64,000 bases of DNA from Eledone cirrhosa (lineage: Eukaryota). Position numbers and translations under genes: made by a program. Shown one piece after another: positions 301 to 35,270 of this stretch. The stretch is taken from the NCBI GenBank assembly GCA_964016885.1, contig OZ024740.1, positions 196,974,001 to 197,038,000 of the forward strand. The letters run 5' to 3'. Under the pieces are notes generated by a model. That model was not told where the DNA came from, made no database searches, and worked only from the letters and a program-made list of their open reading frames with translations. Each line of letters begins with the position of its first letter. Positions within the stretch are counted from its first letter, which is position 1.

Positions 301-343
301 ACGATGTACTAGTTTCAAGCTTGTTAGCTATCGTAAGCACCGT
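301..343 (-). ncRNA. Hammerhead ribozyme family B, core-mutant copy (CUUACGA)
   Basis: Same fold as 745-787 but the CUGANGA box reads CUUACGA; probably inactive. Confidence 0.65.
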
Positions 344-744
344 ATACCTTTCCGCCAGATGGTTGAACGTTCGAAAGTATATACTTTCCTTATGAAAATT
401 AACGGCTGAGCAGCCTAATTTGCATATCGAGTGAGTTCAGTCGGCCAGGCGCACCGAAAACGATAAATGGTATAGAATGAAAGGAAATTTCATTTCTCAC
501 TCTTAGTACGGCACTTACTTAAATGTAAGTATGTATGTATACGTACATACATACATGTATACAGACGTACAGTAGCATGTATATATATATACATACAAGC
601 ACACATATATATATGCACGTATCAGTTTACCGAAAATTTATTATAATGTTCGCTTTGTTCGTTTGTAAACAAACGAACAGCCTCATTTACGCTGTACAGT
701 GTTCAGGCAAGCACGTCACCTTTTTGTTCAACACTGACACAGGA

Positions 745-787
745 ACGATGTACTAGTTTCAAGCTTGTTAGCTATCGTCAGCACCGT
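745..787 (-). ncRNA. Type I minimal hammerhead ribozyme, family B
   Basis: Minus strand: ACGGUG-CUGACGA-U-AGCU-AACA-AGCU-U-GAAA-CUAG-UA-CAUCGU; stem I pairs, palindromic stem III, GUA cleavage triplet. Confidence 0.85.
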
Positions 788-1282
788 ATACCTTTCTGCC
801 AGATGGTTGAACGTTCGAAAGTATATACTTTCCTTATGAAAATTAACGGCTGAGCAGCTAATTTGCATATCGAGTGTGTTCAGTCGGCCAGGCGCACCGA
901 AAGCATTTTGAAGACCGTAAGCTATTGTTTTTTAAAGTAGTGACAAATTCACTTACTTTGATCTCAGCAAACGGTCTTCAAAATGCTTTTAATTAAGCAT
1001 AAAGTGTATTGCAAAATACATTATATATACATCCATATATATATATGTATATATCTATATATGTATATGTATATATATATATGTATATATATATGTTTAT
1101 GTATATATATATATGTATATATATATATGTATATATATATATATATATTGGAATAAATGCTCTGAAATAGCGATATATATGTGAATATAGACATAGAATA
1201 TTCGAAATATTCTGTATGTTTATAATAAACATTTTGAAGACCTAATCGCTATAGAATAGAATACGTCACGTATTACAATTAG

Positions 1283-1371
1283 ATTCTCGATAAAAGCAAG
1301 GGAAGTAATCTACGCGTTTCATTCTTGTTAGAAATCTTCAGGACTACATATCCAGTGCTTTTATCGAGAAT
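1283..1371 (-). ncRNA. Hammerhead ribozyme family A (inverted copy)
   Basis: Reverse complement of 1561-1649. Confidence 0.85.
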
Positions 1372-1560
1372 GACACAGCTAGAGACTTATAGAATATTAT
1401 AAACATACAGAATATTTTCGAATATTCTATGTCTATATTCACATATATATCGCTATTTCAGAGCATTTATTCCAATTTCTAATTTCTGCCGGACCGGCAA
1501 CCGCTCTTTCAAACCAGTTCCTGTACACAGCTAAGTATTCTATAAGTCTCTAGCTGTGTC

Positions 1561-1649
1561 ATTCTCGATAAAAGCACTGGATATGTAGTCCTGAAGATTT
1601 CTAACAAGAATGAAACGCGTAGATTACTTCCCTTGCTTTTATCGAGAAT
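1561..1649 (+). ncRNA. Type I hammerhead ribozyme family A, copy 1
   Basis: GUAGUC-CUGAAGA-U-UUCU-AACA-AGAA-U-GAAA-CGCG-UA-GAUUAC (1585-1627); stem I extended by a perfect 16-bp helix 1561-1576/1634-1649; predicted cleavage after 1621. Confidence 0.9.
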
Positions 1650-31088: not shown

Positions 31089-31707
31089 GGGTTAATCGGC
31101 CGGGGCACCGAAAACGATAAACGGAAAAAATGAAACGAAATTTCATTTCTCACTCTTAGTACGGCTGTTACTTAAATATAAGTACGTCTGTATACATATA
31201 TGTATGTACGTATACATACTTATATTTAAGTAACAGTCGTACTAAGAGTGAGAAATGAAATTTCGTTTCATTTTTTTCCGTTTATCGTTTTCGGTACCCC
31301 GGCCGATTAACTCACTCGATATGCAAATTAGGCTGCTCATCCGTTAATATGCATAAGGAAAGTATATACTTTCAGATGTTCAACCATCTGGCAGGAAGGT
31401 ATACGTTGCTGACGATAGCTAATAAGCTTGAAACTAGTACAGCGTTCCTTTGTCAGTGTTGAACAAATGAGCAACGATGGTTGCTAGACACTGTACGGCT
31501 TAATTCGGGATGTTTGTTTACAAACACACCGAGCATTATAATAAATGTTCGGTGAATCCATACGTACATATATATATGTATGCATGTATGTATATATATA
31601 TATACATACTTCTGTATACATATATGTATGTACGTATACATACTTATATTTAAGTAACAGCCGTACTAAGAGTGAGAAAGGAAATTTTGTTTCATTTTTT
31701 CCGTTTA
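31089..31707 (+). mobile_element. Family B retrozyme-like element: inverted head, 424-bp monomer and partial repeat
   Basis: Fold-back 31089-31312; direct repeat at 31187 and 31611; HHR at 31403-31445(+). Confidence 0.8.
31403..31445 (+). ncRNA. Type I hammerhead ribozyme family B
   Basis: ACGUUG-CUGACGA-U-AGCU-AAUA-AGCU-U-GAAA-CUAG-UA-CAGCGU. Confidence 0.85.
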
Positions 31708-32314
31708 TATATACATCGATATATATATATATATATATACATCGATATATATATATATCGATATATATATATATATATATATATATATATATATATATAT
31801 ATATATATATATATATATATATACATCGATATATATATATATATAATATATACACATCGATATATATATACATCGATATATATATATATATATATATAAA
31901 TATATATATATATATATATATATATATATATATATATATATATATATATTAGAAAGTGAGGTTTTTTTCACAAAATGAAAATAACCGAGGTGGTCCTACT
32001 CGAGTGAAAGTAAAAAAAAAAAAAGATGAAATCGAAAATGCAACTGGAGTCTTATTTTAGAAAAATATATATATATTTATTTGGTTCCTTTACCCGGTTT
32101 CGCAGTTCTTCTGCTTTTCAAAAGTAGAGTTGAGATGGAGGGTCTGTGGTTTTTTCTCACATCTATATATATATAGAGATATATAGATATATATATCAGC
32201 AGACTGACCAGTCAGTTTCCTGTATACGAGCGATAAATAGCCTGCTTTGCCAGATGCAAATAAAATTGAGGCTTGTTTACAAAATTGCAAACGAATCGAA
32301 TGTTATTATTAATA

Positions 32315-32504
32315 GGGGGCGGTGGGATTGGCAGTATAGGGAGAGGGTCGGACACCATGCTTTGACGTATAGAGTTACGGCCCTTGCCATTCTGTGTTCA
32401 AATCCCGCCGAGGTTAACTTTGCCTTTCATCCTTACGGGGTCGATAAAATAAAGTACCAGTAATGCACTGGGTAATTGATGGCATTGTGCTGAACGTAGA
32501 AACA
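32315..32504 (+). mobile_element. Meta-like SINE with 10-bp TSD
   Basis: ATTATTAATA at 32305-32314 and 32505-32514; empty-site paralog at 32880-32995. Confidence 0.8.
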
Positions 32505-33067
32505 ATTATTAATATTCGAAAAAACTCAGATTACATTTATTTGATTCAGCCATGTAGAGCGAAATTTTCTTTTTTACTTGAATTTGGCAAAGCCTGCCAT
32601 TTATTGCTCGTATACAGGAAACTGGCCAGTCTTCTGATTTGCAAATCTGGCTGATCAGTGGATCTGACTGATCAGCCAGTCTGCTAATATGCAAATCAGG
32701 CCGATGAGTCACTGTGTATTTTTTGAAAATAGCATATATTTTCACTAGCTCTGACAGTTTGGCAGGTGAACAGTGAGCTGTACTGATGAAGGGTGATACC
32801 CAGAAACATTAGTGCCTGCAGTTCTGTTCGTATGCCAACACAAGAGCAAGATTGAAGTGTTCATTCCACTGACATGGCTATAAAATTGAGGCTTGTTTGC
32901 AAAATTGCAAACAAATCGAATGTTATTATTAATATTTGAAAAACTCAGATTATATTTATTGTATTCAGCCATGTAGAGCGAAAATTTCTTTTTTATTATA
33001 TATATGTATGTATATATATATATATATATATATATATATATATATATATATATATATATATATATAT

Positions 33068-34872
33068 TGACTGGCGTAGCAGCATCATTAACTGCTACAA
33101 TGGTAAAGGAGATGCCCTAGATAGGGGAAACTGTAGAGGTATTAAATTAATTGACCAGGTCATGAAGGTCACAGAAAAAGGTATAGAGCAACTAATCAGA
33201 GAGCGAATTGATCTAAATGAAATGCAGTATGGGTTTTTGTCGGGTAAAAGTACCACAGACTACCTTTTCCTTGTACGACAACTACAGGAGATGCACCTAG
33301 CTAAAAGGAAACCCCTATACTTAGCTTTTGTCGACTTGGAGAAAGCCTTTGACAGAGTTCCGCGCGCCATTATCTGGTGGGCCCTTAGAAAACTAGGGTT
33401 TGATGAATGGCTTGTGAGAGCTATACAAGCTATGTATAAAGAAACAGTCAGCAAGGTTAGAATTAACAACGAATATAGTGAAGAATTTAGCGTAAAAGTT
33501 GGTGTTCATCAGGGCTCCGTCCTTAGCCTCCTCCTATTTATTATTGCCCTTCAGGCTATAACAGAGGAGTTCAAGACTGGCTGCCCATGGGAACTTCTAT
33601 ATGCAGATGATCTAACGCTCATAGCTGAATCGATGGCTGAACTAGGGAAGAAATTCCAAACATGGAAGCATGGCCTAGAATCAAAAGGCCTTAAAGTTAA
33701 CTTGTCTAAGACTAAAGTTCTAGTGTGTAGGAAGGAAAATAGGGCACAGGTCCCCTCTGGGAAATGGCCATGCTCAGTGTGTAGGAAAGGTGTAGGCAGA
33801 AATACCATTTTATGTCCCAAATGCAAAGTATTGGTGCATAAAAGATGTAGTGGGATCACAGGTAAGCTATCTAAGAACGTAGATTTTATATGTGGCTGGT
33901 GCTCAGGTGCAATAAGTAGCAAGTGCCCACAGGATACTAGCTCCTTCTATTGCCCAGACGGCTCTGTAGAAATAGTAGACACCTTCCGTTAGCTGGGTGA
34001 CAAAATCAGCAGTGGTGGAGGGAAGTTCAGAGAGCTTATACAACTATTAGCCGCTGAAGTTTTCTCTCTAAAAATGAAAGGCAGACTGTATGATGCCTGC
34101 ATACGAACAGCAATGTTACATGGCAGTGAGACCTGGGCAGTGTGTGCAGAGGATCTGCGCAGACTGGAGAGGAACGAAGCATGGATGCTCCGTTGGATGT
34201 GTAATACGTGAACAGCAGAGCATAAATGAACTAAGTGAGAAATTAGGAATAAGAGGGATCAGATGCTGTTTACTCGAGAGAAGACGACAGCTGTATAAAA
34301 AAGTGCAGGGCGATCAAAATTGACGGAAGAGTACGGAGTAGGCAGACCCAGAAAAACCCGGGACGATTTGATAAATTCCGACCTTTCACACTTACACCTC
34401 TCTAAGACAATGTCACTGGACCGAGATCTTTGACGCTACACAGTAATACAGAAGACCCGCCTTGCCTAAGTACAAAGCGAAACCTACAGTCAGTAGGCAC
34501 CTCTTAATCAAATATACACCCCATCCCACTACCTCATCACCACCCCACCCCCATCAACACCACCCCTTTCTCTGTAAAGTTATGTTGGTACCACAACATC
34601 CAGTCCTAAATAAATGAGGTCGTGTAGGTATCACGACAAAAAAAATAACCAGTCCACGCTGTAATGTGGCCCTGTAGGTAACACGGTAAAAACCTCCCAG
34701 TCCACACAAAACGTGGTTGGTGTTAGGAAGGGCATCCAGCCGTAGAAAACCTGCCAGACAGTCCTATACGAGCGAGACAACCAATCTTGCCTCAAGTGGG
34801 ATAATTCCCGTCTAAACCAATGCTAGCGTGGAAGATAGACGTTAAACGATGATGGTGAGGATGATGATGATG
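33068..34872 (+). mobile_element. 5'-truncated, decayed RTE-clade LINE
   Basis: RT ORF 33162-33992 (FVDLEKAFD, GVHQGS, LLYADD) followed by a Cys/His cluster; stops and frameshifts downstream; (GAT)n tail. Confidence 0.9.
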
Positions 34873-34939
34873 ATATATATATATATATATATATATATAT
34901 ATATATATATATATATATATATATATATATAATAAAGGA

Positions 34940-35270
34940 ATATATTTATGTATTTCGTTTCTGAATTTGTTTAGCAAGATTCTTTATCTGAAAACGTGTG
35001 TTGAAACCGATATTGTTATACTTTGGGAGGGTCATGTTGCCAATAAGAAACACACGCACCAGTTGCTTTCACTCCAATTTATTATAAATTAAATTGTAAA
35101 TTTAAAAATTTATAAATTTCCGGTTGGTTGGTTCCACAACTTGACGATTGTTCATATATTGTCAAAGTTCTTTCGTCACACATTCTGTGACCTCTTAAGT
35201 GGCTGGGGATTCTTTTTTTTTTTGTATTGTGCCTCTCTTTTGTTCTGTCCTACGCCATTTTGTTGGTGAT
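34940..35270 (-). mobile_element. Family F element with HHR-like motif (35161-35203; CUUAAGA core)
   Basis: Homologous to 11477-11800; GAAA intact, CUGA box mutated. Confidence 0.65.

What the first reader, a model, noticed from the sequence alone, without database searches (positions are those of the whole stretch)
301..35203. At least seven HHR families clustered in 35 kb; five share an atypical U-U pair at the base of stem II
Seen: families A (1585), B (745), C (12617), D (30090, 30751) and G (21609) have different stems and flanks, yet all read CUGANGA-U-[stem II]-U-GAAA (G has a CAGAAGA variant box). That places U opposite U where canonical hammerheads have a G10.1-C11.1 pair. Families F and H add further variants. 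Inference: a lineage-wide radiation of ribozyme-bearing retro-elements with a shared variant core, which standard descriptors requiring the R-Y pair could miss.
Basis: partly seen in the sequence, partly recalled or inferred. Interest (0 to 1): 0.8.

Follow-up and report, generated by a model that had tools for sequence, protein, structure and literature searches.

The report
Penelope-element hammerheads with altered cores
This stretch is a pile-up of end-pieces of Penelope-type jumping genes and their non-coding parasites, each carrying a predicted self-cutting hammerhead RNA; the U-U mismatch that caught the eye is a known variant, but two families carry core changes (A4, and A-A) that I could not find described and whose cutting is untested.

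Summary
Observation confirmed: 14 hammerhead cores with U opposite U at 10.1/11.1 lie in 301-35203, none in 100 shuffles; ten families are present; stems covary across families. The genome holds about 109,500 such cores. They are the terminal-repeat hammerheads of Penelope-like elements (G, D: Hydra-type; C, H, I: zinc-finger-linker type) and of tandem retrozymes (A, B, F), clustered by (TA)n targeting. U-U is known: active in Perreault 2011, about 60,000 axolotl copies, 14 of 25 published Hydra-clade families. It is not one host-lineage radiation: 29 of 64 Hydra-type motifs from other organisms have it, and A, B and C have G-C relatives. What I could not find described: family G (at least 25,597 copies, intact 713-aa ORFs) has A4 fixed in a motif under purifying selection, and family F (1,739 copies) has A-A. 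Copies do not begin at the cut site, so insertion used uncut or re-joined RNA. Cleavage untested; no RNA run was listed.

The parts
301..902 (-). Family B tandem retrozyme, about 445-bp unit, two motifs (745-787 intact U-U; 301-343 with a decayed box)
1147..1396 (-). Family A inverted, truncated copy with motif 1305-1347 (U-U)
1395..2690 (+). Family A retrozyme array, 4.2 identical 310-bp units; motifs start 1585, 1895, 2205, 2515; predicted cut after 1621, 1931, 2241, 2551
   Evidence: fold z = -4.0
2841..2915 (+). Family K: 3' half only of a long-stem-II hammerhead (U3-A8 in fuller copies), cut by an inversion
5789..5893 (+). Family J: long-stem-II hammerhead
5905..6317 (.). Family H end-piece, inverted pair, decayed motif at 6102-6145 (-)
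11408..11802 (-). Family H end-piece of a PLE (bulged G, G-C); this copy has G12 changed
12261..12907 (.). Family C: head-to-head inverted pair of PLE end-pieces; motifs 12527-12565 (-) and 12617-12655 (+), U-U, U17
   Evidence: parent ORF
21590..21663 (-). Family G: 5'-truncated end-piece of a Hydra-type PLE in (TA)n; motif 21609-21659 with A4, U-U, U17
   Evidence: parent
24317..24861 (-). Family B copy, motif 24597-24639 (U-U)
30023..30225 (.). Family D1: inverted pair of Hydra-type PLE end-pieces, motifs 30039-30087 (-) and 30090-30138 (+), U-U
30513..30815 (+). Family D2 end-piece, motif 30751-30801 (U-U)
   Evidence: parent
31088..31708 (+). Family B copy with inverted 5' part, motif 31403-31445 (U-U)
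31951..32164 (-). Family I end-piece of a zinc-finger-linker PLE; box starts 32121, U3-A8, G10.1-C11.1
32505..32997 (+). Family F retrozyme unit (430-444 bp elsewhere); motif 32775-32824 with A10.1 (32790) and A11.1 (32802); this copy has C at 16.1 (32815) where the family has U
34932..35264 (-). Family H end-piece, box at 35199 decayed (C3 changed)

Best explanation
The region is a (TA)n-rich stretch holding end-pieces of several Penelope-like retrotransposons and tandem non-coding repeats, each with a type I hammerhead motif that likely cuts its own RNA slowly, better as a dimer. Shown: G, D1, D2, C, H and I motifs lie at fixed distances after the stop of RT plus GIY-YIG frames; A, B and F are tandem units without such a frame; copies are 5'-truncated or inverted and end in (TA)n a short way past the predicted cut site; stem III is palindromic in A, B, C, D, F and G; U-U fills the place of G10.1-C11.1 in a four-step stem II. 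Inferred: the PLE protein nicks (TA)n and starts reverse transcription inside an RNA that is uncut or re-joined across the hammerhead; A, B and F borrow that protein and pass through RNA circles; repeated targeting of TA tracts builds the cluster. U-U is an old, tolerated alternative to G-C, inherited from the Hydra-type ancestor in G and D and reached separately in A, B and the clade of C. Because insertion likely does not need fast cutting, weak cores such as A4 (G) and A-A (F) can become fixed.
For: Parents: G motif 0.9-1.1 kb after the stop in 13 of 14 loci with a full 713-aa frame, and again about 190 nt before its start; C 376-404 nt after the stop in 6 of 7 frame ends; D2 443 nt, D1 1.6-2.8 kb, H about 190-310 nt, I about 0.9-1.4 kb. 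Targeting: (TA)5+ within 250 nt downstream of 195 of 249 U-U cores against 455 of 2340 background tiles. Template intact over the cut: 77 of 79 G copies run at least 10 nt past it; of the first 100 copies listed by a downstream anchor only 1-2 (G) and 2-3 (D1) begin near it; this matches in vitro data that cleavage is not needed for PLE insertion (PMC11167929). U-U elsewhere: 29 of 64 distinct motifs beside Hydra-type frames of other organisms, 4 changes on a 52-row tree against 17 for shuffled labels, 14 of 25 families in PMC8557442 File S2. Activity of U-U: PMC3088659, axolotl 22% as monomer, more as dimer (PMC7229834). Sisters with G-C: A with a 322-bp family (z 15), B with a 466-bp family (z 13). 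In D, 19 loop-II sequences but U-U in 98 of the first 100 listed.
Against: No cleavage or RNA evidence exists for any of these families. Most motifs do not fold significantly as monomers (only A and F of 8 tested, and F's best fold is not the hammerhead). No homology between A, B or F units and any PLE end was found beyond a weak 80-nt match of A to D, so which PLE moves them is unknown and A's U-U could have been taken from D. The D1 link to its frame spans a long, repeat-rich spacer. Trees hold no named reference elements, and rows were projected on one query.
Confidence: 0.82

Rival explanations
1. One U-U ancestor radiated in this host lineage into all five families.
For: U-U is the commonest state here (10 of 17 genuine hits in 600 kb of evenly spaced blocks); G, D1 and D2 form one clade (SH-aLRT 100); A's stem II resembles D's.
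Against: G and C proteins share only about 20% identity and sit in different PLE groups; A and B are unrelated outside the motif (z 0.0) and each has a G-C sister; U-U is common in Hydra-type elements of other organisms.
Confidence: 0.07
2. The variant motifs, G above all, no longer cut; the fold is kept as the binding or start signal for the PLE protein.
For: G combines A4, U-U and U17; a U4C change lowers activity considerably (PMC3088659); yet G is young with many intact frames and the motif resists subfamily-level change (1 of 51 columns against 10 of 80 in the flank, P 0.05, private changes equal). Insert ends ignore the cut site. Cleavage was dispensable in vitro.
Against: All other catalytic positions of G (C3, G5, A6, G8, A9, G12-A15.1, U16.1) are kept, as expected if cutting is selected; D1, with a normal box, also shows no ends at the cut, so that test does not separate them; U-U motifs of axolotl cut.
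Confidence: 0.3
3. The motifs are chance matches or decayed canonical hammerheads in AT-rich repeats.
For: AT-rich, repeat-rich DNA; no Rfam hit at gathering; several window copies are decayed (B 337, three H, the F copy).
Against: 0 hits in 100 shuffles; 109,524 against 1,813 control matches; full covariation; U-U, A4 and A-A are fixed family states.
Confidence: 0.01

Closest known systems
Hydra-clade Penelope-like elements and their hammerheads (Craig et al. 2021, PMC8557442; File S2)
   Same: G, D1, D2: DKT, CxCX5C linker, no CCHH, short single frame, (TA)n insertion, type I motif in the terminal repeat; 14 of 25 listed families have U at 10.1 and 11.1.
   Different: G has A4, seen in none of the 25 listed families nor in 64 motifs from other organisms; G and D have long stem III loops; tens of thousands of copies.
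Axolotl retrozyme HHR_Amex2 and metazoan non-LTR retrozymes (Cervera and de la Pena 2020, PMC7229834; Li et al. 2026 preprint)
   Same: A, B, F: tandem non-coding units with one type I motif each, palindromic stem III; U-U at the base of helix II in a family of about 60,000 copies beside a sister family without it.
   Different: B and F units (430-500 bp) are a little longer than the 170-400 nt reported; F has A-A; circles and cutting are not shown here; no PLE end homologous to these units was found.
Natural core variants of Perreault et al. 2011 (PMC3088659): U10.1-U11.1, U3-A8, viroid U4C
   Same: U-U and U3-A8 both occur here (A-D, G; I, K and other families).
   Different: A4 and A10.1-A11.1 are not named in the passages read; the figures and their variant lists were not visible.
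Neptune/Nematis-type PLEs (zinc-finger linker) and the Poseidon element PAc (Frangieh et al. 2024, PMC11167929)
   Same: C, H, I parents have the CX4CxxC linker; insert ends lie downstream of the motif, as for internal priming.
   Different: U-U in this group (C and a U3-A8 family of several thousand copies) was not found described in my searches; Neptune against Nematis was not resolved.

Membership tests
Type I hammerhead ribozyme | Core C3 U4 G5 A6 N7 G8 A9, G12 A13 A14, A15.1-U16.1, H17 | tested here: met
   Met for A, B, C, D, F at family level; I and K have the known U3-A8 swap. See next row for G.
Type I hammerhead ribozyme | U4 in family G | tested here: not met
   A4 in 67 of 67 aligned copies, 94 of the first 100 listed (5 of the 6 others overlap an inverted partner), 41 of 41 copies not picked by the motif.
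Type I hammerhead ribozyme | Three helices around the core, open at stem I, with covariation | tested here: met
   12 of 12 representatives paired at 10.2-10.4 and 1.1-1.4, P <= 0.001.
Type I hammerhead ribozyme | Purine-pyrimidine pair at 10.1-11.1 | tested here: not met
   U-U in A, B, C, D, G; A-A in F. U-U is a published active exception; A-A is not.
Type I hammerhead ribozyme | Site-specific self-cleavage after H17 | not testable with these tools
   Needs an assay; no RNA run listed.
Hydra-clade PLE (G, D1, D2) | DKT in place of DKG; CxCX5C linker; no CCHH in the endonuclease | tested here: met
   G has all three; D1 and D2 parents show DKT and the linker, with a stop inside it in the D2 copy seen; definitions.
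Hydra-clade PLE (G, D1, D2) | Single short frame, hammerhead in terminal repeat, insertion in (TA)n, tandem or inverted ends | tested here: met
   713-aa frames with the motif at both ends, TA flanks, inverted 5' copies.
Hydra-clade PLE (G, D1, D2) | Placement in an RT tree with named Hydra references | not tested
   No named reference in the trees; shared RT motifs with Hydra-1_Amil seen only by eye.
Neptune/Nematis-type PLE (C, H, I) | DKG-type motif, CX2-5CxxC linker, C-terminal GIY-YIG | tested here: met
   H has DKS and is distant (22-25%) from the C and I group.
Neptune/Nematis-type PLE (C, H, I) | Assignment to Neptune or Nematis | not tested
Non-LTR retrozyme (A, B, F) | Short non-coding tandem units, a type I motif in each | tested here: met
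   A 310 bp, B about 445-500 bp, F 430-444 bp; no frame of 120 aa in the A array; no PLE frame joined to F in 30 loci.
Non-LTR retrozyme (A, B, F) | Expression as monomeric and circular RNA | not testable with these tools
   No RNA holder listed.
Non-LTR retrozyme (A, B, F) | Descent from a PLE terminal repeat | tested here: inconclusive
   Only a weak A-to-D match near the motif; the set of PLE ends held is incomplete.

The most novel reading that the evidence does not exclude
Family G, a young Hydra-type element with tens of thousands of copies and intact frames, keeps under selection a hammerhead whose core has A in place of the near-invariant U4 together with U-U and U17: either a natural A4 hammerhead that works only as a dimer or with the element's protein, or a hammerhead fold turned into a non-cutting signal for the reverse transcriptase. 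With F's A-A, the genome offers matched natural variants to settle what hammerheads do for Penelope elements.
Probability: 0.4. Interest if true: 0.62.

Novelty: new variant of a known kind. Interest (0 to 1): 0.36.

Why it matters
The function of hammerheads in Penelope-like elements is an open question (PMC8557442, PMC11167929). This genome holds sister families that differ at exactly the contested positions (B U-U against its G-C sister; A against its U3-A8, G-C sister; G with A4 and an intact protein; F with A-A), so cutting, dimer need and protein help can be compared directly. It also shows that U-U is a main state, not an oddity, of a whole PLE clade, and that well over 100,000 motifs in one genome fall below Rfam thresholds. 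The headline U-U feature itself is already in print.

Tried and rejected
Rfam: no family at gathering in the window; no hammerhead at E <= 10 in 250-3000 or 29900-35400, only in 141-nt stretches; the G-C sister also stays under gathering, so U-U is not the only cause. RNA: no RNA holder listed; of four coded organisms only one sample holds G and F deeply, the others are traces and say nothing on host range. Cut-site footprint: no excess of copies starting at the cut in G or D1; it does not tell active from inactive. Rejected: G's A4 as decay of one copy; G's U4 matches as a subfamily (mostly inversion junctions); a second large A4 family (5,277 against 1,323 control, listing mostly chance hits and decayed B, D, G copies); U-U as an insertion on top of G-C (stem II keeps four steps); H's parent as Penelope/Poseidon (it has the zinc-finger linker); a PLE frame joined to F. 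My first flank-versus-motif figure for G (14% against 3%) was biased by how copies were chosen and is replaced. A 46-copy cluster and two hits are simple tandem repeats and were dropped. No motif was found after three zinc-finger-linker families. Pfam does not recognise the G protein; its 1,206 database relatives are unnamed. Lunse et al. 2017 is not held; Ruffner et al. 1990 was seen only as cited; either may list A4 or A-A. Searches for A4 or A-A in print: and the supplement search. The host was not determined; 'octopus' and 'cephalopod' were guesses from composition.
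Full report
1. Observation. In 301-35203 there are 14 complete cores, all with U at 10.1 and 11.1, and none in any of 100 block-wise dinucleotide shuffles. Mapping family representatives back to the window gives ten families: A, B, C, D (D1, D2), G with U-U; F with A-A; H (bulged G then G-C, three decayed copies); I (U3-A8, G-C); J and K (long stem II, K as a 3' half only). Across 12 representatives of short-stem families from the genome, pairs 10.2-10.4 and 1.1-1.4 are formed 12 of 12 times with several pair types (permutation means about 5, P <= 0.001), 3-8 is C-G 9 or U-A 3, and 10.1-11.1 is U-U 7, G-C 4, A-A 1. 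Stem II keeps four steps with U-U counted, so U-U replaces G-C. Stem III is self-complementary in the six families tested, the known sign of dimeric type I motifs (PMC4209133, parts 1-2 of 4 read).

2. Genome scale and clustering. The window lies in an unnamed 3.0-Gb genome. The U-U pattern has 109,524 matches against 1,813 for the reversed control; a G-C pattern with a wider loop range has 48,566 against 9,379; U3-A8 with U-U has 5,827 against 1,138. G-C families with U3-A8 or very long stem II were not counted. Family counts from exact patterns, lower bounds: D 27,969, G 25,597 by the core and 39,201 by a downstream anchor, F 1,739. In 60 evenly spaced 10-kb blocks there are 19 hits, 2 of them simple-repeat artefacts; 10 of the 17 others are U-U, and 51 blocks have none. 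The window region is about tenfold enriched and is 19.8% (TA)n against 3.9%; the last 29 kb (0.8% TA) has no hit. The cluster goes on for 20 kb to the left, in blocks of 39-50% TA. 195 of 249 U-U cores have (TA)5+ within 250 nt downstream against 455 of 2340 background tiles. Clustering is therefore a shared target preference.

3. Carriers. GIY-YIG domains give 10,597 first-look candidates, 150 scored; I examined 30 returned loci and 20 with long frames. C lies 376-404 nt after the stop of a frame with DKG, YLDD, a CX4CxxC linker and GIY-YIG in 6 of 7 frame ends. G lies about 935 nt after a frame with DKT, YRDD, CxCX5C and no CCHH, the diagnostics of the Hydra clade (preprint section 11 read). 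The 150 best matches to part of this protein are 95-100% identical, many in 713-aa open frames; of 14 such loci fetched, 13 carry the A4 motif after the stop and at least 7 also about 190 nt before the start. D1 and D2 follow related frames (44-49% to G). H and I follow other zinc-finger-linker frames. In the window only the ends of these elements are present, 5'-truncated or as head-to-head inversions, the known structure of PLE insertions (passages). A, B and F are tandem units of 310, about 445-500 and 430-444 bp with no frame attached, which fits non-LTR retrozymes (PMC7229834, sections 14 and 15 and passages read; Li et al. preprint, part 1 of 5 and passages).

4. Is U-U new, and one radiation? 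No on both. Perreault 2011 reports a natural U10.1-U11.1 start of stem II and cites it as the most active mispair (section 8 and passages). One of two axolotl retrozyme families, about 60,000 copies, has it and cuts 22% as a monomer and more as a dimer. File S2 of Craig 2021 lists 25 Hydra-clade families, 14 with U at both positions, under the heading of canonical motifs (supplement part 2 of 59 read). I tested this independently: of 86 loci from metagenome and genome contigs that encode relatives of the G protein, 63 have a same-strand motif (0.8 per shuffled set); the 64 distinct motifs are U-U 29, G-C 18, G-U 5, A-C 4, A-U 4, other 4; none is A-A and none has A4. In a tree of 52 rows (60 with an assignable motif, 8 near-duplicates dropped) G, D1 and D2 form one clade among U-U elements; U-U against purine-pyrimidine needs 4 changes, shuffled labels 17 on average and never under 11; the U-U rows are rejected as one clade (quick tree, no named references). 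Within the genome, A is homologous over its unit to a 322-bp family with U3-A8 and G-C (69% over 385 nt; z 15), B to a 466-bp family with G-C (z 13), while A and B are unrelated outside the motif (z 0.0); B and F are weakly alike (z 5). In the group of C, U-U (C and one U3-A8 family) and G-C (I) are mixed. So there were several switches; the direction is not known, and A's stem II may have come from D (73% over 80 nt). U-U is held, not drifting: D shows 19 loop-II sequences but U-U in 98 of the first 100 matches listed.

5. What is left that I could not find described. G: A4 in 67 of 67 aligned copies. Among 41 copies not picked by the motif, changes shared by three or more copies fall in 10 of 80 flank columns but 1 of 51 motif columns (P 0.05; all 51 copies 15 of 80 against 1 of 51, P 0.005), while private changes are equally frequent (0.44 and 0.45 per site): the A4 motif is under purifying selection in the transposing lineage. 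A U4C change is reported to lower activity considerably yet allow viroid infection. F: A-A in 94 of the first 100 matches listed; A10.1 39 of 39 and A11.1 38 of 39 aligned copies; no other letter at 2% or more at either position in the contigs of one deeply holding sample. The window's own F copy has lost the 15.1-16.1 pair. Paper searches for these variants (supplement search) found none, but figures were not visible, Lunse 2017 is not held and Ruffner 1990 was not read.

6. Mechanism. 77 of 79 G copies extend at least 10 nt past the predicted cut, 34 ending 20-29 nt past it. Listing copies by a downstream anchor, 1-2 of 100 (G) and 2-3 of 100 (D1) begin near the cut. The inserted DNA was thus copied from RNA intact across the site, uncut or re-joined. 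This agrees with the one PLE studied in vitro, where reverse transcription starts inside the RNA, hammerhead mutants insert normally and cutting needs the protein (PMC11167929, passages). I infer slow, dimer- or protein-dependent cutting that trims read-through transcripts and, for A, B and F, yields circles; low demand on speed lets U-U, and perhaps A4 and A-A, become fixed. That G no longer cuts and serves as a protein signal remains open (0.3). No RNA run was listed, so expression is untested.

7. Detection. Rfam finds nothing at gathering. In 141-nt stretches the HH9 model gives B 15.6 and A 16.5 bits against 35 for B's G-C sister, all under the cut-off of 52.

8. Verdict. Real, well-supported type I hammerhead motifs of known kinds of elements; U-U is known and not a host-specific radiation; A4 and A-A are family-fixed variants worth an assay. 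Novelty: new variant of a known kind. Interest 0.36. Earlier notes of the scan concern other families; look-ups by the G and F sequences returned nothing. Also consulted as passages without bearing: PMC6765202, PMC6155905, PMC4191386; PMC1636495 gave no passage.

Noticed in passing
window 17615-20071 (-), 26285-29432 (-), 33066-34400 (+): LINE-type reverse transcriptase frames, one with an AP endonuclease and one with a PHD-like finger; not Penelope-like and not linked to the motifs.
   Followed up: partly
window 2841-2915; many loci: Family K is very common and nearly always cut by an inversion inside its roughly 55-nt stem II, leaving only the 3' half; fuller copies have a U3-A8 box.
   Followed up: partly
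L048:2567 (-) and 3058 (+); L217:522: A family with a CCGAAGA box (C4), long stem II and mostly A-G at 10.1-11.1, 8 copies in the loci held.
   Followed up: no
L215:1210, L227:7739, L235:9864, L223:2799: Long-stem-II families with U-A, C-A or A-G at the base of stem II.
   Followed up: no
L017, L041 and listing: An abundant zinc-finger-linker PLE family carries U3-A8 together with U-U; its stem I is weak in many copies.
   Followed up: partly
L047:5162 onward, L061, L066, L059: Three zinc-finger-linker PLE families show no hammerhead within 3.2 kb after the frame under my descriptor; one frame is 1,096 aa.
   Followed up: no
G000:C1:747944-747990 and four similar pairs: In G, inversion junctions often fall inside the box and create a U4 box by chance on one strand.
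   Followed up: partly
window 1536-1585: The A unit holds, upstream of its motif, a stretch resembling the antisense 3' half of a D-type motif; chance or a captured inverted end.
   Followed up: no
window 60243-60363: A decayed D inverted pair outside the cluster, with U-C at 10.1-11.1 and a changed box.
   Followed up: partly
L379-L386: Hydra-type PLE frames with hammerheads in records labelled as bacterial genomes, probably host contamination.
   Followed up: no
window 56343-56694: A 91-bp tandem repeat in three copies with an inverted part; no hammerhead core.
   Followed up: no
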